DNA of 64,000 nucleotides from an uncultured Candidatus Saccharibacteria bacterium (GCA_964555185.1 CAZKRD010000003.1:83943-147942); one strand, 5' to 3'; numbered from the stretch's first letter, positions 2,971 through 53,580 are shown. A program made the numbers and translations. The notes: generated by a model not told the origin, from the letters alone.

Positions 2971-3109
2971 AGATGTGAAGTTTTTTTGTTTCTTATTTCT
3001 TATTTTTTAATTTTTATTTATTTTTTGTTTTTTATTGAATAGTATTCCACGCTTTCTTTAAAATTTAAAAATAAGAAATAAAAAATCAATAAGAAACAAG
3101 CAAGAGGAA

Positions 3110-3147
3110 ATAAAAAATTACCCCAAATTCTTTGGGGAAATTTTTTA
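3110..3147. terminator. Bidirectional rho-independent terminator between the convergent ftsK and pyrG
   Basis: The hairpin is ccccaaattctttgggg, flanked by an A-run on the 5' side and a T-run on the 3' side. Confidence 0.55.
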
Positions 3148-3165
3148 CCTTCAGTTTTCTGTTAC

Positions 3166-5025: not shown

Positions 5026-6042
5026 ATGCCTGACTTCAATTCCAAAAAAATAAGAGGGGAGAGCTTTGGTGAGACTTTAAGAAAGAGAAGACTGGATTTG
5101 GGCTACAGCTTGAAGCAGGTGGCAGAGGTTTTACAAATTAGAAAGAACTACCTAGAGGCTTTAGAGGGAGAGGACTTGAAGTCTCTGCCTTCGTCAGTCT
5201 ACGTCCAGGGATTCTTGAGACACTATGCGCGTTTTTTGAAATTAGATCAAGGAGCCATTCTTAAATCTTATCAGACAGAACGCACTATTTCAGATAACCT
5301 AGAGTCGAAGGCTGAATTGCCTTATCCAAACAAGGTTAAGCGGATTTCTCCTTTGGCTCTGAACCCTCGCTTGGTCAAGTTGAGCCTAATTGTTTTGGCT
5401 GTAGTGGCCTTTTTTATTTATCTTGGCTGGGAACTTTCCGGCTTTTCTGCCCCGCCTTCTCTGAAGATAATTTCGCCTCAAGACGATGAGAGAATTAATA
5501 CTGATTTTGTGATGATTGTGGGACAGACAGATGAAGGAGCAGAAGTTTTGATTAATAGTCAGCCGGTTTTCATTGATCCTAAGGGGTATTTTAGGGAGCA
5601 GATTATTTTATCCGAAGGGCTTAATACTGTCGAAGTATTGGCTAAGAACAAGCTGGGCAGAGAGCGTAGGGAAGAGAGGAAAATTTTAGTTACTTTGTCA
5701 CCCGACGTGTTTTCGGAAAGAAGTTCGGGCGCTCAAAAGAAACAAAAAGGTGAGAGCAGTGTTTTATCAGAAGAGATAGGGCTTCAAGTTGAAATTAAAA
5801 ATAGCGCAACCTGGATCTCTGTGGATACTGATGAGGTCAATGCTTTTCAGGGCACAATGCTGCCTGGAACTTCACAGGATTTTTATGCCCAGAAAAAGAT
5901 CAGTATTACTTCCGGTCAAGCAGGCAATACTTATATTATTTTTAATGGTGAAGACTTGGGTAATTTAGGAGAGCCTGGAGAGGTGGTGAGGGATGTTGAG
6001 TTTACAAGGGAGTTGGAGGTGGGAAATTTGAAGGAGGAGTGA
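5026..6042 (+). CDS. rodZ: RodZ-like cytoskeleton protein (N-terminal HTH, single TM, C-terminal DUF4115-like domain)
   Basis: The HTH reads LGETLRKRRLDLGYSLKQVAEVL...VYVQGFLRHYARFL. One TM helix is LSLIVLAVVAFFIYLGW. The C-terminal domain reads ATWISVDTDE...QAGNTYIIFNGEDLG. Confidence 0.6.
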   Translation: MPDFNSKKIRGESFGETLRKRRLDLGYSLKQVAEVLQIRKNYLEALEGEDLKSLPSSVYVQGFLRHYARFLKLDQGAILKSYQTERTISDNLESKAELPYPNKVKRISPLALNPRLVKLSLIVLAVVAFFIYLGWELSGFSAPPSLKIISPQDDERINTDFVMIVGQTDEGAEVLINSQPVFIDPKGYFREQIILSEGLNTVEVLAKNKLGRERREERKILVTLSPDVFSERSSGAQKKQKGESSVLSEEIGLQVEIKNSATWISVDTDEVNAFQGTMLPGTSQDFYAQKKISITSGQAGNTYIIFNGEDLGNLGEPGEVVRDVEFTRELEVGNLKEE

Positions 6043-6053
6043 TTTGCTGATAT

Positions 6054-6084
6054 CCTGCCTGCGCTTATGAGCTTCGGCAGGCAA
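6054..6084 (+). repeat. GC-rich palindrome (cctgcctgc...gcaggcagg family) 12 nt downstream of the rodZ stop
   Basis: The 7-bp stem tgcctgc/gcaggca is read directly. It belongs to the same motif family as the palindromes at 10798, 13864 and 25805/25836. Confidence 0.5.
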
Positions 6085-6132
6085 ACTTCAAATGATTTTA
6101 GTTTTGACGTTTGGCATTTATTTGTTTCTGGG

Positions 6133-6290
6133 TTATAAGCAAGCTTGAAATTCTTGTTCGGAAAAAGTGAAAAGGAATTTCACTTTCTCCTCACTGCGAA
6201 TTATAAGCAAGCTTGAAATTCTTGCTCGAAGAAAATGCAAGTGGTTACTTGCTTTTCTTCTCACTACGAATTATAATATTCTGATAAGTC
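6133..6290 (+). repeat. Tandem direct repeat of about 68-70 bp (2.3 copies) immediately upstream of recA
   Basis: Unit 1 (6133-6200) and unit 2 (6201-6270) both begin ttataagcaagcttgaaattcttg and both end tc(c)tcact(g/a)cgaa. A partial third unit begins at 6271. Each unit has an 8-bp palindrome CAAGCTTG and an internal hairpin of different sequence (gtgaaa-agga-tttcac versus gcaagt-ggtt-acttgc). Confidence 0.8.
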
Positions 6291-6304
6291 AATAAATAAA
6301 AAAT

Positions 6305-7339
6305 ATGACAAAAGAAATAACAGAGGATGGGAAATCTCAAGCCGTGGAGGCGGCGATCAGTCAGATCAAGGAAAGGTTTGGTGAAGGATCGATTATGCAC
6401 CTTGGCGAGGCCAAGATTATGCAGGTCGAGTCGATCCCCACTGGTTCGGTTTCTTTAGATATCGCTCTTGGTATTGGCGGGGTGCCGCGCGGGAGGGTTC
6501 TTGAGATCTTCGGACCGGAAGCTTCCGGGAAGACTACCTTGGCCCAGCACATTGTGGCCGAGATTCAAAAGCGGCGAGGGGTGGCCGCTTTTGTTGATGC
6601 CGAGCACGCTTTGGATCCTGATTATGCGAAAATAATCGGTGTTAATGTGAACCAATTGTTGATTTCTCAACCCGACACAGGCGAGCAGGCATTGGAAATT
6701 GTTGAGACCCTAGTCCGCTCTAACGCGATTGATGTGATTGTGATTGATTCAGTGGCAGCTTTAACCCCCCGGGCCGAGATTGAGGGCGAGATGGGGGATG
6801 TTCATATGGGTTTGCAGGCCAGATTGATGAGTCAGGCTCTCCGCAAACTGACTGCCGTGATTGCCAAATCCAAGACCACGGTAATTTTTTTAAACCAGAC
6901 ACGGATGAAGATTGGTGTTTTTTTTGGCAATCCAGAAACGACCCCTGGCGGCAAGGCGTTGAAATTCTATGCTTCGGTCCGGATTGAGCTGCGCAGGTCT
7001 GCCCAGATTAAACAGGGTGATAAAATAATCGGCAACCGGGTTAAGGTCAAAGTGGTGAAGAACAAAGTGGCTCCTCCTTTTCAGACCTGCGAGTTTGATA
7101 TTATGTATAACGAAGGGATTTCTTATACCGGAGATCTTTTGGATGTGGGGACGGCTTACCAGGTTGTAGACAGGAGTGGGTCTTGGTATCAATATGGAGA
7201 TCAGAAATTAGGCCAAGGTAGAGAGGTAAGCAAGCGGTATTTAAGGGAAAACCCAAAGATAGCGCGCGAGATCGAGAAGAGGATTTGGCAGAAAGTAAAA
7301 GAAGAAGGAAAAGCCAAACAAGAGAAATTTGGTAAATAA
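6305..7339 (+). CDS. recA: Recombinase RecA
   Basis: The Walker A region reads [70 protein letters not shown] at 6272-6277 lies upstream. Length is 344 aa. Confidence 0.95.
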
Positions 7340-7966: not shown

Positions 7967-8197
7967 TTAACGTAAAGTAAATGGAAGGAGGGCGATAAAG
8001 CGGGCTTGTTTTACCGCTTTTTCTAATTGGCGCTGATGAGCAGAACAGGTGCCGGTTCGTTTTTTGGCCCTGATTTTGGCGTAGCTAGAAAGACACCCCT
8101 TGAGCAATTCAGGATTTTTGTAATTGATTATTTTATTAGGGTCAACGCAAAAGCGGCAGTATTTTTTGGGAGGCACGGATTTTAGTTCAAAGTTCAA
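7967..8197 (-). CDS. rpsR: 30S ribosomal protein S18
   Basis: The 76-aa protein has YCRFC...INYKNPELL...RAKKRTG.C...QRQLEKAVKQARFIALLP, the S18 signature. It sits in the conserved rpsF-ssb-rpsR arrangement. Confidence 0.9.
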   Translation of the reverse strand: MNFELKSVPPKKYCRFCVDPNKIINYKNPELLKGCLSSYAKIRAKKRTGTCSAHQRQLEKAVKQARFIALLPFTLR

Positions 8198-8228
8198 AAT
8201 TAAAAATTCAAAGTGACAAATTTCAATT

Positions 8229-8318: not shown

Positions 8319-8912
8319 CTAGAACGGAATATCCTCAATACTAATCCCTTCGTTTTCTGTTTGTTCTCCCGAGGAAGCGGGGGCTGGTTTTTTTTTGTCT
8401 TCTTCTGGTTTGGTTTCTGCCTTGGTATCCACTGGCTCAACATTAATCGTGGGAATTTCTTCGGGAGGGCCTTGGGTCTTGAGTATAGCCTCTGCTGTCG
8501 GGGTTTGAGCTGGCTGGATTGGCGCGGTGGTCGGTCCCAGGTTTTTTCTGGATTCAGCCATTGCTTCGGGAGGCCTGCCGCCTGGAGGGGAGCCGAGCAT
8601 AATCAGATCGCGAGCCACGATTTCGGTGCGATAACGTTTAATCCCATCTTGGCCTTCCCAGTCCCTGGTCTGGAGTCGGCCTTCGATATAGACTTTGTTT
8701 CCTTTTTTCAAGTACTGGCCGCAGATGTCAGCGAGTTTTCTCCAGGCCACAACATTGTGGTACTCAACAGCTTCTTGTCGCTGGCCCGCCTGATCAGTCC
8801 AGATGCGATTGGTTGCCACGCCGAAGTTAGCCACGGAATCTCCGGAAGGGACATTGCGCATTTCCGGGTCGCGGGTTAGATTGCCAATAACCATTACCTT
8901 ATTTAGATCCAT
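8319..8912 (-). CDS. ssb: Single-stranded DNA-binding protein
   Basis: The OB-fold N-domain reads [10 protein letters not shown]...[33 protein letters not shown] Pro/Gly/Gln-rich linker follows. The acidic C-terminal tail is IEDIPF (the conserved DIPF tip). Confidence 0.9.
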
Positions 8913-16893: not shown

Positions 16894-17003
16894 ATTTTGT
16901 AAGCTAAGAGCTAAAAGTGTAAAGCTAAAAGTTAGAAATTTAAAAAACTTTTAATTTTAGACTCAACTTTTAACTTTGCATTTTTAACTTTGAACTGAAT
17001 CTG

Positions 17004-19771: not shown

Positions 19772-21217
19772 CTAATACGCTGTCGGTTTTTTTAACCTAT
19801 TTTTTACTCTTTGCGCTATTTTTTTGTCTAACACTTTTTCAAGGTCGGTTATTCTTGCTTTTTTGATGTTTTCGATTGAGCCGAATTCTTGAAGAAGCAC
19901 TTGTTTTCTTTTTGGGCCAATGCCTGGGATCTGATCGAGCTTGGAAGCAATTGTTGCTTTTTTGCGCAGTTTGCGGTGATAGCTGATTGCAAAACGGTGG
20001 GCTTCATCGCGGATTTGTTTTAGAAGCATTAAGGACCTGGAATCATCTGGCAGAGTAATCGCTTTCTTCTTTTTTGGAAAGTAGATCTCTTCCAGTTTTT
20101 TAGCGAGAGCGCGTACAGGTATTTTAAGATTATATTTCTTGATTGCTTTGAGAGCAGTATTAAGCTGGGCTTTGCCTCCGTCAATCACAATAAGATCGGG
20201 CTTTGGCCATCCCTCTCTTTGTTTTCTAAATCGCCTTTCTAAAATTTCTTGGATCATCGCGACATCATTCGCGCCTTTGACGGTTTTAATTTTAAAGCGG
20301 CGGTAGTCAGATTTTGATGGTTTCCCATTATAGAACACAATCATCGAGCCGGTTGCTTGCTTTCCTTGGATATTGGAAACATCATAGGCCTCAATCCGGT
20401 AGGGGATCCCGAGAAGTTTTAAGTCGCCTTTTAGTTTAGCTCCGAGAGTTTCTTGATAGAGGTTAAGCTTGCCTCCTTGGATATTTTGTAAGAATTCTTT
20501 AATACTTTTTTTGCTCATCGCCTGAATCTTTTCTAAAGCAAACAATCGGTTGCGGTAAAATGTTGCTTTTTCATAATTTTGCTCTTGACTTGATTCAAGC
20601 ATTCTCTTCTTGCTTTCTCTTGTTATTTTTTTATGCTTCCCGCGTAGGAATTCTTGGATGCTTTTGATAATTTCCTGATAATCTTCTTTTTTGATTTTAT
20701 GAACACAAGGCGCAGGACAGAGTTCAATGTGATAGAAAAGACAGGTCTTCTTTGGTAGATTTTTACAGGAACGATAGGGAAAGATTTTGCGCAGAATTTT
20801 TAAGGTCTGTTTGGCAGCAAAGGAGGAAAGATAAGGACCAAAGAGTTTCCCTGAGAATTTGTCCTTTTCTTTCTCGCGCAGAATAAAAATCAGGGGGAAC
20901 TCTTCGCGGGTTAGGGCGATATAGGCGTGGGATTTGTCGTCTCTACCAATGATATTGTAATCTGGCCTGTATTTTTTAATCAGACTGTATTCTAAAAACA
21001 AGGCCTCGGTTTCGTCTATGACCACGATGTGCTCGATTTTTTTAATCTTGGCGAGCATCTGCTTTTTATCCGGGGCAAGGTTATTTCTTTCGCGAAAATA
21101 GGAAGAGACCCGTTTTTTTAGGTCCTTGGCTTTGCCAACATAAATAACGTGATTTTTAAAATCACGGAAGATATAGACACCGGGTTTTTTTGGCAACTCT
21201 GCTATTTGTTTTTTCAT
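19772..21217 (-). CDS. uvrC: Excinuclease ABC subunit C (short form, 481 aa)
   Basis: The N-terminal GIY-YIG domain reads PGVYIFRDFKNHVIYVGKAKDLKKRVSSYF. The C-terminal HhH reads IPGIGPKRKQVLLQEFGSIENI. It is shorter than the typical 600-aa UvrC. Confidence 0.8.
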   Translation of the reverse strand: MKKQIAELPKKPGVYIFRDFKNHVIYVGKAKDLKKRVSSYFRERNNLAPDKKQMLAKIKKIEHIVVIDETEALFLEYSLIKKYRPDYNIIGRDDKSHAYIALTREEFPLIFILREKEKDKFSGKLFGPYLSSFAAKQTLKILRKIFPYRSCKNLPKKTCLFYHIELCPAPCVHKIKKEDYQEIIKSIQEFLRGKHKKITRESKKRMLESSQEQNYEKATFYRNRLFALEKIQAMSKKSIKEFLQNIQGGKLNLYQETLGAKLKGDLKLLGIPYRIEAYDVSNIQGKQATGSMIVFYNGKPSKSDYRRFKIKTVKGANDVAMIQEILERRFRKQREGWPKPDLIVIDGGKAQLNTALKAIKKYNLKIPVRALAKKLEEIYFPKKKKAITLPDDSRSLMLLKQIRDEAHRFAISYHRKLRKKATIASKLDQIPGIGPKRKQVLLQEFGSIENIKKARITDLEKVLDKKIAQRVKNRLKKPTAY

Positions 21218-22830: not shown

Positions 22831-22939
22831 ATTTAAACCATTTTGCCTGCCAGCCGAAGCTTATGAGGCGAAGGTTGGACTTTTAACTTTTCACGATGTA
22901 TAATTAGAAAGTTAATTTTTTGACAAAATCAAAAAGGAA

Positions 22940-25777
22940 ATGCCAAAAGAAATTCTGATCCGCGGGGCGCGGGTCCATAATTTAAAGAACATTGATCTTA
23001 AGATCCCGCGAGACAAACTGGTTGTGATCACTGGTCTTTCTGGTTCTGGGAAGTCTTCTTTGGCTTTTGACACGATTTATGCTGAAGGGCAAAGGCGGTA
23101 TGTCGAGAGTCTCTCTGCTTATGCCCGGCAGTTTTTGGGATTGATGGACAAGCCGGATGTGGATCAGATTGAAGGGTTGTCGCCCGCGATCTCGATTGAC
23201 CAAAGGTCAGCTTCTTCTAATCCCCGTTCGACCGTGGGCACGATCACGGAAATTTATGACTATCTAAGACTGCTATTCGCGCGAGTGGGCAGACCGCATT
23301 GCTCGAAGTGCGGTAAGCCGGTTTCAGCTCAGACCGTAAGCCAAATCACGGATAAAATCCTTTCGGTTCGCAAAGGGACCAAGGTGGTCATTCTAGCGCC
23401 AATGGTTCGCGATCAGAAAGGCGAACACAAAAGAGAGATTGCCGAGATTCAGAAAGCGGGTTTTGTTCGGGTGCGTCTGGATGGGACAATTATGGATGTA
23501 GAGGAAGCCTTAGAGACTGCGATTAATCGACGGAGGAGACACAACTTGGATGTGGTTGTTGATCGGTTGATCTTAGAGAAAAACAAAGAAGAGCGGGAGC
23601 GGCTTGTTGATTCTCTGGAGACTGCTTTGGATTTGGGCAATGGCTTGGTGATTATCAATCAGCCTGATGCCAAAAAGGACGTTCTTTTTTCGGAACACTT
23701 TGCTTGTCCGGATTGCGATATTAGCCTGCCGGCTTTGGAGCCGCGCAATTTTTCTTTTAATTCTCCGCACGGCGCCTGTCCTGAATGCACGGGTTTGGGC
23801 ACCAAGCTTGAGATTGATCAGAAGCTGATTATTCCGAATAAAAAGCTCTCGGTGCGCGAAGGAGCGATCCGGCCTTGGGCGCGGGCCGTTTCGGCTGGCG
23901 GCTGGTATATCCAGATGCTGGAATCAGTAGCCAGTCACTATGGCTTCTCTTTAGATCTTGCTGTAAATAAATTAAAACAGGACGATCTCAATATCATTCT
24001 TTACGGTACCAAAGGCGAGCGAGTGCCCACTACTTATCGTAAAGAGTATAGGCATTTTGAGGCAAAGATTCCTTTTGAGGGCGTGATCCCGAATCTGGAG
24101 CGCAGGTACAAAGAGACCCAGTCTGACTATATCCGGCGCGAGATTGAAAAGTATATGCGGATCTATCCCTGCCCGACCTGCCAGGGCGCCCGCCTCAAAC
24201 TCGAGATTTTAGCTGTCACTGTAGGAGAGAGATCAATTATTGATATTGTCAGGATGAACATTGCCGAAACCTCTGATTTCTTTAAGGATTTGAGTAAGTC
24301 TTTAACCCCTAAAGAAAGGATAATTGCGAAGCAGATCCTAAAAGAGATCAGAGAACGGCTTTCTTTTTTGCAGAATGTGGGTCTGCCTTATTTAACCCTA
24401 GACCGCTCCGCTTCTTCTCTGGCCGGGGGCGAGGCCCAGAGGATCAGACTGGCGACTCAGATTGGTTCTTCACTTTCTGGCGTTCTCTATATTTTAGATG
24501 AACCTTCAATCGGTTTACATCAGAGGGATAACCTGCGGCTCCTTGCTACCTTGAAGCAGTTAAGGGATCGGGGTAATACCGTGATTGTGGTTGAACATGA
24601 TGAAGAAACGATCTTGAATGCCGACCACATTATTGATATCGGACCAGGGGCAGGCAAACACGGCGGCGAGATCGTGACCCAAGGTTCGCCTGCACAGGTT
24701 AAGAATTGCAAAAAGTCCTTAACCGGCCAGTATCTAGCCCACAGATTGGAAATTCCTCTACCTCAACACTATCGTCGCGGCAATAGCCGCAAGGTTTCGA
24801 TTAAAGGAGCAAGAGAGCACAACTTGAAGAATATTGATGTTGAGATTCCTTTGGCCAAATTCGTTTGCATCACCGGTGTTTCTGGTTCAGGCAAGTCCAC
24901 TTTGATGGATGATATCTTGGCGCGGGCCTTGGCCCAAAAGTTTTATCGCGCAAAAAGACTGCCGGGAAAACACAGACGGATCACGGGTTTTTCTTATTTA
25001 GATAAAGTGATTACGATTGACCAGTCGCCGATCGGCCGGACGCCCCGTTCCAACCCAGCTACTTATACCGGCGTTTTTACTCCGATCCGCGAACTTTACG
25101 CCAAAGCCCCGGAAGCCAAGATCCGCGGCTATCGGGCGGGCCGGTTCAGTTTTAATGTTAAAGGCGGGCGCTGCGAGGCCTGCCGCGGCGAGGGCTTGGT
25201 CAGGATTGAAATGCAGTTTCTGCCTGATGTTTATGTGGAGTGTGAGGAGTGCCAAGGCAGCCGTTACAACAAGGCGGCTTTGGAGATTTATTGTAAAGGG
25301 AAGAACATCGCGCAGGTTTTGGAAATGACCGTGGAAGAGGCCTTGCAGTTTTTTTACAATATTCCGATTGTTCGTCAAAAATTTCAAATATTAAGTGAGG
25401 TCGGATTGGGTTATCTCCGCTTGGGGCAGCCCGCGCCTACCCTGTCTGGCGGCGAGGCGCAGAGAGTCAAATTAGCCACTGAACTTTCGCGCCGGGCCAC
25501 AGGCAAGACCCTCTACATTTTAGACGAGCCCACAACCGGTCTCCATTTTGATGATGTGAAGAGACTCTTAGGGGTCCTGAATCAATTAGTGGATAAAAAG
25601 AATACGGTTTTGGTGATTGAACACAATCTGGATGTGATTAAATCCGCGGATTGGATTATTGATTTGGGGCCGGAAGGAGGAGAGGCCGGAGGGGAGATTG
25701 TGGCACAGGGCACGCCGCGGCAGATGGCGAGAGTGAAGAAGAGTTATACGGGGCAGTTTTTGAAAAAATATTTTTAA
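22940..25777 (+). CDS. uvrA: Excinuclease ABC subunit A
   Basis: The protein is 945 aa. It has two ABC ATPase modules ([19 protein letters not shown] and [15 protein letters not shown]) and zinc-finger Cys pairs (CPDC, CPEC, CEAC, CEEC). Confidence 0.95.
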
Positions 25778-50228: not shown

Positions 50229-51200
50229 TTATGTTTTTGTTTTGTAATTTTTGGCGAATGTACCGGAAACAAGGGCAGCGAGAGCGACGCAGTTGCGCAG
50301 GAAGCTGACAAAAGGATAAAGAAGTATTACAGGATCCCTTTTTCGTTTTAGGGTCCAAACCAGAGGAGGGAGGGTGAGGAGCAAATAAGCAGCAATCAAG
50401 ATAAGTAATACGTAATATGTAATGGTTAATGTGTAAATAAGAAAGATTGAAAAGAAACCCAGTAAGATGATCAAGAGCTGGATCTGGATGATGTTGTCAT
50501 AAGAGTAAGAAGCAGAACCCTGCAGATAAGGACGGTAATAGGCATAGGCCCAAGAACGCTTTAAGAAGGACTTCAGGGTTGGCTTATAGTGGTGCCAGGC
50601 ATGAGCTTTTTTATTTAAAACGAGGCAAAAGCCCGACCCCACAAGCCGTAGGTTAAATTCGTTGTCAAAGGCGGCATTGATCAGTTCTTCTTTAAAAAAG
50701 CGGCTGACGCGGGAAAGAACAGAAGCGCGGTAGATAAGGTTAGCGGAGGTTAAGTGCAGGGGGCTTACCGACTGCTTCTTCATCTTGTATTCTACCTCGT
50801 AACCGGCAATCCGGGCAATCCAAGGGTCGTCCTCAAAGGGGTGTAAGATTCCGCCTACGCCGGCCACGCGGGAGTTCTTAAACTTTCGCAGGTTTTTCAA
50901 AAGCCACCTTTTTTCAATCCTGACATCCGATTCAACAAGAGCGACAAATTCATATTTTTTCGCTTTTTCTAAGCCCCGGTTTAAGGCGGCGGCCTGGCCT
51001 TTGTTTTTCTGGCCTAAAAGCTTGATCTCTCTGTATTTTTGAGCAAGCTTTTGGACAATCTCTCCTGAATTGTCTTGGGAGCCATCGTCAACCACGAGGA
51101 TCTCTTTTTGGAAGCCGCCTTTTTGCCTTAAAATTGAAAGCAGGGCGCCCTTGATCCAGCGCGCGTCGTTAAACAAACTGACGACAAAGAGAATTTTCAT
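50229..51200 (-). CDS. Glycosyltransferase family 2 with a C-terminal membrane anchor (two TM)
   Basis: The protein starts MKILFVVSLFNDARWIKGALLSILRQ... and has VVDDGSQDNS. The C-terminal TM pair is LLIILLGFFSIFLIYTL. Confidence 0.75.
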   Translation of the reverse strand: MKILFVVSLFNDARWIKGALLSILRQKGGFQKEILVVDDGSQDNSGEIVQKLAQKYREIKLLGQKNKGQAAALNRGLEKAKKYEFVALVESDVRIEKRWLLKNLRKFKNSRVAGVGGILHPFEDDPWIARIAGYEVEYKMKKQSVSPLHLTSANLIYRASVLSRVSRFFKEELINAAFDNEFNLRLVGSGFCLVLNKKAHAWHHYKPTLKSFLKRSWAYAYYRPYLQGSASYSYDNIIQIQLLIILLGFFSIFLIYTLTITYYVLLILIAAYLLLTLPPLVWTLKRKRDPVILLYPFVSFLRNCVALAALVSGTFAKNYKTKT

Positions 51201-52657
51201 TTTAAGATTCTGGTTATTATCTTTAGGTCTTTTGTGAGATTTTTGGGATTCCTATAGGTCCTGATCCGTTCTTTTAAAAATCCAAGCCTTAAATAAAAGT
51301 GGCGATAGGCCCATTTTTGCATTTTTTCCAACTCTTGATTAGAGAGATTGGGATAGGAGAGCAAAGCCCGGCGGCTTGGGTCTAATTTTTCGGTATTGAT
51401 TTTAAGGTATCCTTTCTTTTTACAAAAAGCGTGGTAAGGGGTGCCGGGAAAGGGGGTGGCAATCGAGAACATCACATTATTAACCTTCATTTTTTTGAGT
51501 TCTTTCACTGTATTTTTGATGTCAGCGACTGTTTCTTGGGGGCAGGTGCCAAAGACAATGTTGAATTTGGCTTCAATTCTGTATTTTTTGAGATTAGAAA
51601 GCGCCTTTTCAATATCATCGACCTTTAATCCTTTATGGATATAGTTTAATATTTTTTGATTTAGGCTTTCCACGCCGATATCAATGACCCTACAGCCGGC
51701 TTGGGCCAGTTTTTGAACAAGTTCAGGATCGGTCAGAAAATCAGCCCGAGAGAGACAGCCCCATTCTAAGTTAAGGTCGCGGATTCCGCTGCAGATTTTG
51801 ATTGTCCGTTTCCTGTCCCAGAGAAACTGGTCGTCAATAATCATCACGGCCCGAAAGCCCTGTTTTTTGATCAAGTTGAATTCAGAGATCACTCTTTCTG
51901 CCGAGAGCAGGCTGGGCGCTGGTTTGCCCTTGTGTTTTTTTAGGTGCTCTTGCTCGCGGGCAAAGCTTATACTGTTTGGAACGCAAAAAAGACAATGGAA
52001 AGCACAGCCGCGGGAAGTGATCATTACGGTTTGGGGGGAGCGCGAAAGCTTCGGGTTATAGTAGGACAGAGCATAATCGGCAATACTTTTATGCAGGCGG
52101 TCGAGAAGGGGAAATTTATTGATATCAAGAGGTTTTCCAGAGTAAGGCAGGTGGATGACCTCTCCTTTTTTTAAATAAGACAGGCTTTCTGGTTTACTTT
52201 TGGTTAAGAAACGGAGGATGTTTTCTTCTGGTTCTCCCCGGAAAACGATCAGATTAGGATCGAGAAGATATTCTCCGGGCACGCGCGTGGGTTCAGGGCC
52301 GTGGACCAAGACAAGGGAGCGGGGATTATACTTTCTTAACTTTTTGATCGTAAAGAGGTCGGCTTTTTTCGAAAGAATCACTGAATGGATGATATAGATT
52401 TTTGAATCATCCTGGGACAGTGTTTTTAAGAAAGCGGGCCAAGAGAGTTTGTCTAAAATAGCATCGAGGTAATTCATTTTGAAACCCTGCTTGTCCAAGA
52501 GGGTCAGGATGTAGAGATTGGCCAAATCCAGGGAATGGTAGAGTTGATAAGAACAGCCGAAGATTCTTTCGGGAATTTTTTTGGGATTTAAGCTGGGCGG
52601 TTCGATAAAAGTTATTTTCATTGAAGTTTTTTTTGTTTCCAAGCGAGAGCGTCGCAA
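51197..52657 (-). CDS. B12-binding-domain radical SAM enzyme (class B rSAM, methyltransferase-like)
   Basis: The N-terminal cobalamin-binding Rossmann-like region (MKITFIEPP...) is followed by the radical SAM motif ITSRGCAFHCLFCVP (CxxxCxxC). Length is 486 aa. Confidence 0.75.
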   Translation of the reverse strand: MRRSRLETKKTSMKITFIEPPSLNPKKIPERIFGCSYQLYHSLDLANLYILTLLDKQGFKMNYLDAILDKLSWPAFLKTLSQDDSKIYIIHSVILSKKADLFTIKKLRKYNPRSLVLVHGPEPTRVPGEYLLDPNLIVFRGEPEENILRFLTKSKPESLSYLKKGEVIHLPYSGKPLDINKFPLLDRLHKSIADYALSYYNPKLSRSPQTVMITSRGCAFHCLFCVPNSISFAREQEHLKKHKGKPAPSLLSAERVISEFNLIKKQGFRAVMIIDDQFLWDRKRTIKICSGIRDLNLEWGCLSRADFLTDPELVQKLAQAGCRVIDIGVESLNQKILNYIHKGLKVDDIEKALSNLKKYRIEAKFNIVFGTCPQETVADIKNTVKELKKMKVNNVMFSIATPFPGTPYHAFCKKKGYLKINTEKLDPSRRALLSYPNLSNQELEKMQKWAYRHFYLRLGFLKERIRTYRNPKNLTKDLKIITRILK

Positions 52658-53580
52658 AAAGCGCAGATTTTTTCCTGTTCAGCCCGGAAATGTTTAAATT
52701 TTTTGTTTGTCCAGATTTGGCTTAAAGTTTCCTCTCCCAGACTGCCGCAAATTTTGTTGCGCAGATTGCAGCAGGGCGCGGCCTTGCCGTCAACCGTGAT
52801 GTAAAGATGGTTGTCGGTTTTGAGGCATTTCCGGTCACAATCAGTCGCCAGATAACGGAACAGGTTAAACTGGTTAAGACAGAGGAATTTTAAATTAAGT
52901 TTTCTGGCGGCCTTTTTAGCGCGCCTGATTATTCTCTGTTCCTTTTGTGAAGAGGGTCGAGAGAGTTTGCTCCCCGGGTACTTGATTAGGCGAATCAGAT
53001 TGATTTTGTCCACTTTGTTTGCTGCGGCGAATTCGATCACATCTTTCACATCCCGGTATCCTTTTTGGCTGATAATGGTTTGGAGAGAGATCAAGGGGAG
53101 TTTTTTAGAACCCCTAATTTTAATGAAGTCCTTGATATTATTTAAGACTTGGATGTTGTTCTGATGGCCGGCGGAATTATTGTTGATTGCGTCGATTGAA
53201 AAAGAAACTTCGTAGATATTTGATTTAAGCAGATTTCTGGCCCAAGTCTGGTTTAAGAGAGATCCATTGGTTGTAAATTTTATTTTGCTTTTCGGAAATT
53301 TTTGGTTAATGTATTTTATCATTTTGGACAAGTCCTTGTGAAGCAGGGGTTCGCCCCAGCCAGTAAGGGTAATCGTCCGGGGGTGCTTTAGAGCGTCAAT
53401 CGCTTTTCGGAATGTTTTCCAGGTTATGTCCTTTTGTTTAGCTCCGATTAGTTTTCGGGGGCAGATTGGACAAGCAAAATTGCAGCGGTTAGTGATCTCG
53501 ATTTGGATCTCTTGGGGGTAGGGTTCTTGGACATTAAAAAACAAACAAAAAAACTTTTCTATTTTTTGAAAGAGGGCCAT
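52618..53580 (-). CDS. Radical SAM enzyme with a C-terminal SPASM/twitch Cys-rich domain
   Basis: The rSAM motif is EITNRCNFACPICP (CxxxCxxC). The C-terminal Cys cluster is ...GKAAPCCNLRNKICGS...CAFCDALAW. Length is 320 aa. Confidence 0.75.
   Translation of the reverse strand: MALFQKIEKFFCLFFNVQEPYPQEIQIEITNRCNFACPICPRKLIGAKQKDITWKTFRKAIDALKHPRTITLTGWGEPLLHKDLSKMIKYINQKFPKSKIKFTTNGSLLNQTWARNLLKSNIYEVSFSIDAINNNSAGHQNNIQVLNNIKDFIKIRGSKKLPLISLQTIISQKGYRDVKDVIEFAAANKVDKINLIRLIKYPGSKLSRPSSQKEQRIIRRAKKAARKLNLKFLCLNQFNLFRYLATDCDRKCLKTDNHLYITVDGKAAPCCNLRNKICGSLGEETLSQIWTNKKFKHFRAEQEKICAFCDALAWKQKKLQ

What the first reader, a model, noticed from the sequence alone, without database searches (positions are those of the whole stretch)
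6054..6304. 68-bp tandem repeat with CAAGCTTG palindromes and compensatory hairpins directly upstream of recA
2.3 copies of a 68-70-bp unit end 15 bp before the recA -10 box. Each unit starts with the 8-bp palindrome CAAGCTTG followed by AAATTCTTG. Each unit also contains a short hairpin, gtgaaa/tttcac in unit 1 and gcaagt/acttgc in unit 2. The hairpin sequences differ but the structure is retained. I found no convincing LexA (Cheo or CTGT-type) box. The repeat could be a lineage-specific operator array for a dimeric repressor spaced at about 6.5 helical turns, a phase-variable promoter spacer, or remnants of a small element. A REP-like palindrome (6054-6084) sits just upstream.
Basis: seen in the sequence. 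Interest (0 to 1): 0.55.

Follow-up and report, generated by a model that had tools for sequence, protein, structure and literature searches.

The report
Small mobile hairpin repeat in recA promoter
The tandem repeat upstream of recA is two copies of a small, dispersed, hairpin-forming repeat element that landed inside the gene's -10 promoter box in an ultra-small (Patescibacteria) bacterium. It is not an array of repressor-binding sites.

Summary
The repeat is real: two units (6133-6200 and 6201-6270) plus a third TTATAA at 6271-6276. It is not specific to recA. Near-identical units lie at two other loci of the same metagenome assembly (ydjC and pnp). A fourth locus (ftsK-pyrG) carries one in a sister genome that is about 91% identical in DNA. 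Three of the four loci are filled in one genome and empty in the other. Window unit 1 is 93-98% identical to copies at other loci but only 79% to its tandem neighbour, so the array is not a simple local duplication. Deleting exactly the two units restores TGGGTTATAATA, the promoter motif invariant in three relatives that lack the repeat. The element therefore sits inside the recA -10 box. Its 3' end supplies TTGCTT, 17 bp, TATAA+T, a likely replacement promoter (inferred, not shown). The "compensatory hairpins" are 13-14-bp stems. Three hairpin subtypes differ at five positions by paired changes that keep base pairing. CAAGCTTG is not conserved among units. No unit lies upstream of uvrA, uvrC or ssb. 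No inverted terminal repeats, clean target duplication or transposase were found, so the way it moves is unknown. Verdict: a new family of a known kind (REP/MITE-like), of moderate interest.

The parts
5026..6042 (+). Upstream gene for a RodZ-like membrane protein (HTH_25, RodZ_C); same order as in all relatives
   Evidence: Pfam; synteny
6054..6081 (+). GC-rich hairpin CCTGCC-N16-GGCAGG after the upstream gene. It is terminator-like but has no T run, and it belongs to a second small repeat type rather than to the 68-bp unit
   Evidence: a 24/27 relative at L037 1306-1332; a looser relative upstream of uvrA at 22846-22880
6111..6139 (+). Upstream half of the ancestral recA promoter: -35 TTGGCA (6111-6116), 17-bp spacer, then TGGGTTATAA (6129-6138). 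The insertion turned the -10 into TATAAG, losing the final T
   Evidence: aligns with TTGCTy-17-TGGGTTATAAT of L005, L008 and L010
6133..6200 (+). Unit 1 (68 bp; 5' module 'a', hairpin type 1). Short hairpin 6138-6143/6153-6158; long hairpin 6160-6172/6178-6190
   Evidence: 98.5% identical to the ydjC-locus copy and 93-98% to the pnp-locus copies
6201..6270 (+). Unit 2 (70 bp; 5' module 'a', hairpin type 2). Short hairpin 6206-6211/6221-6226; long hairpin 6228-6242/6247-6260, with an A-tract / hairpin / T-tract layout that the scan flagged as terminator-like on both strands
   Evidence: 90-91% identical to the sister genome's recA units
6249..6277 (+). Inferred working recA promoter, a hybrid of element and host sequence: -35-like TTGCTT (6249-6254, inside the 3' arm of the long hairpin), 17-bp spacer, TATAAT (6272-6277 = element end TATAA plus host T)
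   Evidence: The same TTGCTT-17-TATAAT is found in relatives L008 and L010 and at the last unit of L004. TATAAT is about 4-fold enriched in intergenic DNA, and TTATAAT also precedes ssb and dnaG. An rpoD gene with regions 2-4 is in the window
6271..6276 (+). Third copy of TTATAA, closing the array. It is either a duplicated target or the element's own terminal sequence
6305..7339 (+). recA
   Evidence: Pfam RecA, E = 2.6e-135

Best explanation
The repeat is two head-to-tail copies of a roughly 68-bp non-coding, dispersed repeat element. The element is found in one narrow Patescibacteria lineage. Each unit has a conserved 5' module with a short hairpin (AGCAAG-N9-CTTGCT). It also has a long imperfect palindrome of 31-33 nt that exists in at least three subtypes, and a conserved 3' tail ending in CGAATTATAA.

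In the common ancestor of this genome ('A') and a sister genome ('B', RecA 94% identical), a unit entered the recA promoter inside the -10 box, at TGGGTTATAA^T. A second unit of a different subtype now sits next to it in A. In B the array was remodelled to about 2.7 units of one subtype, and the upstream half of the old promoter was lost.

The element ends in TATAA and carries TTGCTT exactly 17 bp upstream of that end. Its junction with the host T therefore rebuilds a sigma-70-type promoter (TTGCTT-17-TATAAT), from which recA is most likely transcribed. The old -10 upstream was weakened to TATAAG.

The long palindrome is kept as a hairpin by paired substitutions. This points to a structure-dependent role. 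It may be recognised as single-stranded DNA by whatever copies the element, or it may act as a weak two-way terminator or RNA hairpin.

Shown: dispersal, presence/absence differences between genomes, the insertion point, and hairpin covariation. Inferred: promoter function, terminator function and the mode of movement.
For: (1) Dispersal. Units occur at recA (window), at the 3' end of a 402-aa gene convergent with ydjC (L024 = L094, on scaffold_19 of the same ENA assembly as the window), and between pnp and a 551-aa gene (L037, 2.5 units). Genome B has them at recA (L004) and between ftsK and pyrG (L101 6668-6739).

(2) Presence/absence. A and B are 91% identical over 17 kb of shared gene order. 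The pnp site is filled in A and empty in B, where the spacer is only 48 nt. The ftsK-pyrG site is filled in B and empty in A. The ydjC site carries a unit only in A. Relatives with 83-88% RecA identity have no unit at recA.

(3) Not a local duplication. Window unit 1 is 93-98% identical to copies at other loci and 79% to its neighbour unit 2.

(4) Insertion point. Removing the two units restores TGGGTTATAATA, which is invariant in L005, L008 and L010.

(5) Hairpin kept by covariation. Among the three subtypes, five stem positions change on both sides and stay paired; there is one mismatch in each of two subtypes and one bulge in the third. The short hairpin shows G-C, G-T and A-T at one position.

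(6) Promoter. TTGCTT-17-TATAAT is the same hexamer pair and spacing as in relatives' recA promoters. TATAAT is enriched in intergenic DNA. A full-length rpoD is present.

(7) Short-read contigs (Logan) end inside the unit at two different loci, as expected for a multi-copy repeat.
Against: No terminal inverted repeats exist beyond the 6-bp palindrome TTATAA (sequence read directly; folds leave the ends unpaired).

No clean target-site duplication was found. The recA site fits an ATAA or TTATAA duplication. At the pnp and ftsK-pyrG sites, however, the insert replaces 11-18 nt, and one array ends inside a unit.

No transposase is linked to the element in about 110 kb of genome A. The only transposase-like gene seen, of the rve type, shows no similarity to the unit.

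Copy number is low: only three loci are known in A and two in B, and no further copies occur in the 64-kb window or its 10-kb flanks. Spread by recombination rather than transposition is therefore possible.

That scaffold_19 and the L037 contig belong to the same organism as the window is likely but not proven. They share the assembly or sample, and both have paired orthologous contigs in the second sample.

Promoter and terminator activity are untested. TTGCTT matches only 3 of 6 positions of TTGACA.
Confidence: 0.75

Rival explanations
1. Operator array: the units are binding sites (CAAGCTTG or the long palindromes) for a dimeric, lineage-specific repressor that controls recA in place of LexA.
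For: The palindromes overlap the -35 position of the proximal promoter. No LexA gene or known SOS box was seen in the DNA examined.
Against: CAAGCTTG is not conserved among units. The hairpin subtypes differ in half-site sequence and spacing. No unit lies upstream of uvrA, uvrC or ssb. Units sit downstream of unrelated genes, in both orientations. They are absent from orthologous sites in the sister genome and from recA promoters of slightly more distant relatives.
Confidence: 0.04
2. Local tandem duplication of the recA promoter region by slippage or unequal crossing-over, perhaps acting as a variable-copy, phase-variable promoter.
For: Copy number differs between the two genomes (2.1 against 2.7 units). 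The three long hairpins of genome B are identical to each other, which points to local duplication or gene conversion there. Each junction repeats a promoter-like -35/-10 pair.
Against: Window unit 1 is closer to copies at other loci (93-98%) than to its neighbour (79%). The unit exists at loci unrelated to recA. Spacing between -35 and -10 does not depend on copy number. Local duplication probably did act after insertion, but it does not explain where the unit came from.
Confidence: 0.08
3. Host-useful terminator/insulator modules: the units are mainly two-way intrinsic terminators, each with a following promoter. They are copied between gene ends by recombination rather than being selfish mobile DNA.
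For: All four loci lie just after a stop codon: from overlapping it to about 90 nt downstream. The long hairpin has the A-tract / hairpin / T-tract layout of the genome's clear two-way terminator (window 3112-3146). Orientation relative to the upstream gene is the same at two loci and opposite at two, which fits a symmetric function. Junctions show microhomology and no target duplication.
Against: The stems are AT-rich and weak, and only the type 2 hairpin passed the terminator scan. The units are dispensable at orthologous sites in a genome 91% identical. Two loci already have another terminator-like hairpin beside the unit. This reading overlaps the main explanation, differing in function rather than in origin.
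Confidence: 0.12
4. Cis-regulatory leader RNA or tiny RNA gene: transcription from the upstream promoter (6111-6139) gives a roughly 165-nt leader whose hairpins attenuate or stabilise recA mRNA, or each unit is a small transcription unit of its own.
For: The 6100-6310 region folds better than shuffles (z = -3.3). GCAAG/CTTGC occurs in both hairpins of unit 2, which would allow alternative pairings (sequence). G-T pairs are tolerated on the + strand in the short hairpin.
Against: No Rfam family matches. Genome B lacks the upstream promoter altogether. Units occur in both orientations relative to neighbouring genes. The upstream -10 lost its final T.
Confidence: 0.04

Closest known systems
Correia repeat enclosed elements (CREE / nemis) of Neisseria
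   Same: Both are small non-coding dispersed elements found next to genes. Both differ in location between close strains, which is taken as evidence of mobility. A CREE can create a promoter at its end together with host sequence, and it forms hairpins in RNA (PMC2649163). Here the element end TATAA plus a host T makes TATAAT, with an internal -35-like hexamer 17 bp away.
   Different: CREE has 26-bp terminal inverted repeats, a TA target duplication, lengths of about 105 or 155 bp and more than 100 copies per genome (PMC2649163). This unit has no inverted ends beyond TTATAA and no clean target duplication. It is 68 bp long, is known at only 2-3 loci per genome, and forms head-to-tail arrays.
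REP / BIME / REPIN elements of proteobacteria (own knowledge)
   Same: Both are imperfect palindromes of about 30-35 nt in extragenic DNA just after genes, often clustered. The hairpin rather than the exact sequence is conserved. Known roles are as terminators or mRNA stabilisers. REP elements are mobilised as single-stranded hairpins by a domesticated transposase (RAYT).
   Different: REP clusters alternate in orientation, carry a conserved tetranucleotide next to the hairpin, reach hundreds of copies and co-occur with a RAYT gene. Here the units are head-to-tail and have an extra conserved 5' module with a second hairpin. Copy number is low, and no such gene was seen in the DNA available.
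Pneumococcal BOX elements (own knowledge)
   Same: Both are modular intergenic repeats whose modules can be tandemly multiplied. Both form stable secondary structure and can alter expression of neighbouring genes.
   Different: The sequences are unrelated. BOX has three module types (A, B, C) and many copies per genome. Here two 5' variants and three hairpin variants reassort.
Putative mobile promoters (Nijveen, Matus-Garcia and van Passel 2012, PMC3575422)
   Same: The concept is the same: highly similar promoter-bearing sequence found upstream of unrelated genes, and promoter replacement by a mobile sequence.
   Different: That is a descriptive class, not a mechanism. Only one of the four loci here places the unit in front of a gene in the right orientation.
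LexA/SOS operators upstream of recA
   Same: Both are palindromic DNA overlapping the recA promoter.
   Different: There is no shared motif upstream of uvrA, uvrC or ssb. The palindrome sequence is not conserved between units. The unit is absent in relatives.

Membership tests
MITE (miniature inverted-repeat transposable element) | Small, non-coding, several dispersed copies | tested here: met
   Units are 68-70 bp. There are three loci in genome A and two in genome B.
MITE (miniature inverted-repeat transposable element) | Terminal inverted repeats | tested here: not met
   Only the 6-bp self-complementary TTATAA is shared by the two ends. The folds leave the ends unpaired.
MITE (miniature inverted-repeat transposable element) | Target-site duplication of fixed length | tested here: inconclusive
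   The recA site fits an ATAA or TTATAA duplication. The pnp and ftsK-pyrG filled/empty pairs show replacement of 11-18 nt and a truncated unit.
MITE (miniature inverted-repeat transposable element) | Parent insertion sequence with matching ends in the genome | not testable with these tools
   Only about 110 kb of genome A could be read. The one rve-type gene seen (L100 15041-16080) shows no similarity to the unit.
REP/BIME/REPIN | Imperfect palindrome of about 20-40 nt, extragenic, with structure conserved | tested here: met
   The palindrome is 31-33 nt with 12-14 pairs, and five positions covary. All loci are extragenic or at a gene's last codons.
REP/BIME/REPIN | Clusters with alternating orientation; conserved flanking tetranucleotide | tested here: not met
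   The arrays are strictly head-to-tail.
REP/BIME/REPIN | Associated RAYT (Y1 transposase) gene; high copy number | tested here: inconclusive
   No Y1 transposase domain appears in any gene table or Pfam scan of the DNA held, but most of the genome is unseen. Few copies are known.
IS200/IS605-derived palindrome-associated element | Different subterminal hairpins at the two ends, no inverted ends, no target duplication, insertion 3' of a short fixed sequence | tested here: inconclusive
   Two subterminal hairpins are present and inverted ends are absent. The left flanks end in ATAA at three sites, but the sample is too small and no transposase is known.
LexA-type SOS operator | Conserved palindromic motif upstream of several DNA-damage genes and conserved in relatives | tested here: not met
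   No unit or motif lies upstream of uvrA, uvrC or ssb. The unit is absent from relatives' recA promoters.
Phase-variable promoter repeat | Repeat number changes the -35/-10 spacing or promoter integrity | tested here: not met
   Every unit carries its own hexamer at a fixed 17-bp spacing.
Intrinsic (two-way) terminator | Stable hairpin flanked by an A-tract and a T-tract, at a gene's 3' end | tested here: inconclusive
   The layout is present in all three subtypes and the position fits at all four loci. The stems are AT-rich, and only type 2 passes the scan. Activity is untested.
Known RNA family (riboswitch, leader, sRNA) | Match to an Rfam covariance model | tested here: not met
   Nothing reaches the gathering score. 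The best hit in the region has E = 0.71 and is far below threshold.

The most novel reading that the evidence does not exclude
The unit may be a new type of hairpin-dependent mobile 'terminator-plus-promoter cassette' of ultra-small Patescibacteria genomes. It has no inverted ends and no target duplication. It would be copied as single-stranded DNA by an enzyme not yet identified, and it would prefer TTATAA-like sequences such as -10 boxes and the AT-rich DNA after stop codons. On this reading it can replace promoters of core genes such as recA and rewire their control in a lineage where no LexA-type control was seen in the DNA examined.
Probability: 0.15. Interest if true: 0.6.

Novelty: new member of a known kind. 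Interest (0 to 1): 0.36.

Why it matters
Patescibacteria (CPR) genomes are tiny and are usually described as poor in repeats. Two full-text searches found no description of REP- or MITE-like elements in them. Here a small structured repeat is caught turning over between two genomes only about 9% apart. It sits inside the -10 box of recA, a core gene, and the promoter appears to have been rebuilt from element sequence. That makes it a compact natural example of promoter replacement by a mobile sequence.

It also carries two practical warnings. Tandem palindromes in front of a repair gene are not necessarily operators. And such units break short-read assemblies exactly at promoters.

The finding opens no major question by itself. 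The mechanism of movement, with no inverted ends and no target duplication, is the part that could turn out to be new.

Tried and rejected
Rfam found nothing relevant, either at gathering thresholds over the whole window or by E-value over 5900-6400.

The collection scans with GAAATTCTTGYTCGRARAAA returned 56 metagenome and 27 genome loci. By BLAST and nhmmer, all but two (L024, L037) are chance 20-mers in unrelated organisms.

No matches were found in viral contigs, phage records or plasmid records.

I looked for inverted terminal repeats and for a fixed target duplication. Neither was found (see the membership tests).

I did not build a covariance model or use the count of structure pairs. 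MAFFT places the right arms of the three hairpin subtypes one column out of register, so one consensus bracket string would miscount. I tabulated the pairs per subtype instead.

The ydjC locus was tried as an empty-site control. The sister genome is too diverged there (YdjC 75%), and the 3' end of the neighbouring gene looks rearranged, so no exact junction could be read.

The -35-like TTGAAA inside the 5' module has no usable -10 hexamer 17 bp downstream (read directly), so I rejected it as a promoter.

An rve-type gene beyond the window end shows no similarity to the unit.

Literature searches for CPR or Patescibacteria together with MITE or REP gave nothing relevant.

Full report
**Setting**

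The window is part of a 707-kb scaffold from a metagenome assembly (ENA ERZ23486238, scaffold_1). Its RecA is closest to proteins labelled Patescibacteria or Doudnabacteria. The gene order pyrG(-), rodZ-like, recA, efp(-), rpsR, ssb, rpsF is shared with relatives. I call the window's organism A. Organism B is a sister genome from JGI sample 3300033148, with RecA 94% identical and 91% nucleotide identity over 17 kb of shared gene order.

**The observation**

- Tandem Repeats Finder gives 6133-6276, period 68, 2.1 copies, 80% matches.
- The first 24 nt of the two units are identical, and the 20-mer AAGCAAGCTTGAAATTCTTG occurs twice against 0.03 expected.
- The units are 6133-6200 and 6201-6270, followed by a third TTATAA at 6271-6276.
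Unit 1 has GGAAAAAGTGAAA/TTTCACTTTCTCC at 6160-6190. Unit 2 has GAAGAAAATGCAAGT/ACTTGCTTTTCTTC at 6228-6260.
- Each unit also has a short hairpin, AGCAAG-N9-CTTGyT.
- The array does not stop 15 bp short of the -10 box. Its last TTATAA plus the next T is the best -10 hexamer (TATAAT, 6272-6277), 28 nt before the ATG.

**Comparison at the recA locus**

Relatives with 83-88% RecA identity (L005, L007/L008, L010) have an intergenic region of only 87-109 nt with no repeat. Their promoter is TTGCTy, 17-18 bp, TGGGTTATAAT. In the window, TGGGTTATAA is at 6129-6138, immediately where unit 1 begins, with TTGGCA 17 bp upstream of the TATAAG hexamer. If the two units are removed, the sequence reads TGGGTTATAATATTCTGATAAG. 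This aligns with the relatives, and TGGGTTATAATA is invariant in all four sequences. The array is therefore an insertion inside the recA -10 box, flanked on both sides by TTATAA.

Genome B also has the array, in another form. It has a 3' partial unit fused to the upstream GC hairpin, then two full units, all carrying the type 2 hairpin. The upstream half of the old promoter is missing. In B the CAAGCTTG palindrome reads ACAAGTTTG and GCAAAGCTCG, so it is not conserved.

**The unit occurs elsewhere**

A pattern scan of the metagenome and genome collections gave 83 loci. BLAST and nhmmer showed that all but two are chance matches. The two real ones come from an NCBI assembly that shares an identical contig with the window's ENA assembly (SDBT01, GCA_004196315.1).

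- L024 is identical to scaffold_19 of the window's own ENA assembly (L094). It carries one unit 98.5% identical to window unit 1. The unit overlaps the last codons of a 402-aa gene that is convergent with ydjC.
- L037 carries two full units and a partial third between the stop of pnp and a 551-aa gene.

In genome B the pnp site has a 48-nt spacer with no unit. Conversely, B has a unit of a third hairpin subtype between ftsK and pyrG (L101 6668-6739). Genome A lacks it at window 2971-3165. No further copies occur in the window, in 10 kb on either side of it, or in the other DNA held.

In total four loci are known. One is shared by A and B, and three are filled in only one of two genomes about 9% apart.

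**Not a local duplication**

Window unit 1 is 93-98% identical to the ydjC and pnp copies but 79% to its neighbour unit 2. Unit 2 is 90-91% identical to B's recA units. The modules also reassort. The 5' variants 'a' (GCAAGCTTG) and 'b' (ACAAGTTTG) occur with hairpin type 1 or type 2 in all four combinations. This points to recombination or gene conversion among copies. B's three identical hairpins suggest that local duplication or conversion acted there as well.

**Hairpin conservation**

Written in one register, the three subtypes of the long hairpin differ at five stem positions by changes on both sides that keep pairing: G-C/A-T at four positions and A-T/C-G at one. Types 1 and 3 each have one mismatch, and type 2 has one bulge. 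The short hairpin shows G-C, G-T and A-T at one position.

The sequence and spacing of the half-sites differ: GTGAAA-N5-TTTCAC, GCAAGT-N4-ACTTGC and TGCAAAT-N2-ATTTGCA. It is therefore the structure that is kept, not a protein-readable sequence. An alternative I cannot exclude is that imperfect palindromes are 'corrected' by template switching during replication. That process would mimic compensatory change without any selection.

**Regulon test**

The window contains uvrA (22940-25777), uvrC (19772-21217, minus strand) and ssb (8319-8912, minus strand). None has the unit or its motifs upstream. The two other CAAGCTTG sites (23803, 42819) lie inside coding regions. No LexA-like or transposase gene is in the window.

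**How it most likely works**

Shown:
- It is a dispersed unit of about 68 bp with two hairpins.
- It is gained or lost between close genomes.
- At recA it sits in the -10 box.

Inferred:
- The element ends in TATAA and has TTGCTT exactly 17 bp upstream of that end, so its junction with the host T recreates TTGCTT-17-TATAAT. This is the same hexamer pair and spacing as in relatives' recA promoters.
- TATAAT is about four-fold enriched in intergenic DNA. TTATAAT also precedes ssb and dnaG. The genome encodes a full-length sigma-70.
- The old promoter upstream now has TATAAG, having lost the conserved last T, and B has lost that promoter altogether. The proximal hybrid promoter is therefore the likely working one.
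- The long hairpins have an A-tract / hairpin / T-tract layout like the genome's clear two-way terminator at 3112-3146. All four loci lie from overlapping a stop codon to about 90 nt after it, in either orientation. A weak terminator or insulator role is plausible but untested.
- How the unit moves is unknown. It has no inverted ends beyond TTATAA and no clean target duplication. Junctions show microhomology and small replacements. No enzyme candidate was found.

**Comparison with known systems**

- In effect it is closest to Neisseria Correia elements, which create promoters at their ends and differ in location between strains (PMC2649163). It lacks their 26-bp inverted repeats and TA duplication.
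- In anatomy it resembles REP/BIME palindromes. It is head-to-tail rather than alternating, is low in copy number, and has no known RAYT gene.
- It fits the descriptive idea of 'mobile promoters' (PMC3575422).
- It fails the tests for an SOS operator, a phase-variable spacer and any Rfam family.

I file it as a new family of a known kind: a small dispersed palindromic repeat.

**Caveats**

- That scaffold_19 and L037 belong to the same organism as the window is likely, not proven.
- Only about 110 kb of genome A and about 55 kb of genome B were readable.
- The number of copies per genome, the enzyme and the target rule remain open.
- Promoter and terminator functions are inferred from sequence alone.

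Noticed in passing
window 6054-6081; L037 1306-1332; window 22846-22880: The GC-rich hairpin upstream of the array (GCCTGCGCTTATGAGCTTCGGCAGGC) has a 24/27 relative at another locus (L037) and a looser relative just upstream of the uvrA promoter. This looks like a second small GC-rich palindromic repeat or terminator type in an otherwise AT-rich genome.
   Followed up: partly
L037 6300-6365 compared with L098 6760-6790: The 551-aa gene next to the pnp-locus units carries a 45-nt, in-frame, GC-rich palindromic insertion near its 5' end. The insertion is absent from the sister genome's 536-aa ortholog. It recalls palindromic elements that insert in frame into genes.
   Followed up: partly
window 16953-16998; L037 3082-3128: An AT-rich 47-nt sequence (CAACTTTTAACTTTGCAyTTTwAACTTTGAAyTGA) lies next to tRNA-Leu in the window. 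It recurs at 87% identity at the comM/lspA junction of another contig and may be a third small repeat.
   Followed up: no
L100 15041-16080 (about 5-6 kb beyond the window's right end): A pair of genes of the rve (integrase-core) type lies in the same scaffold, among short unannotated genes. It is probably an insertion sequence and shows no similarity to the 68-bp unit.
   Followed up: partly
L002 1, L003 1, L096 1089-1116: Short-read (Logan) contigs from several runs end inside the unit's long hairpin at both the recA and ydjC loci. The element breaks de Bruijn-graph assemblies exactly at promoters and gene ends.
   Followed up: partly
L094 10860-11060: At the ydjC locus, sequence resembling the last 15 or so codons of the 402-aa gene appears on both sides of the unit plus an adjacent hairpin (CCATGATT...AATCATGG). 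This suggests a duplication or rearrangement that accompanied the insertion.
   Followed up: partly
window 8191-8214; L024 5255-5278: A 24-nt match (96%) links the region just upstream of rpsR in the window and the region upstream of murJ on another contig. It was not examined.
   Followed up: no
window 29249-53580: A cluster of about 24 kb holds sugar epimerases, glycosyltransferases, methyltransferases and a flippase-like gene. It ends in two radical-SAM genes (51197-53580), one of them with a SPASM domain.
   Followed up: no
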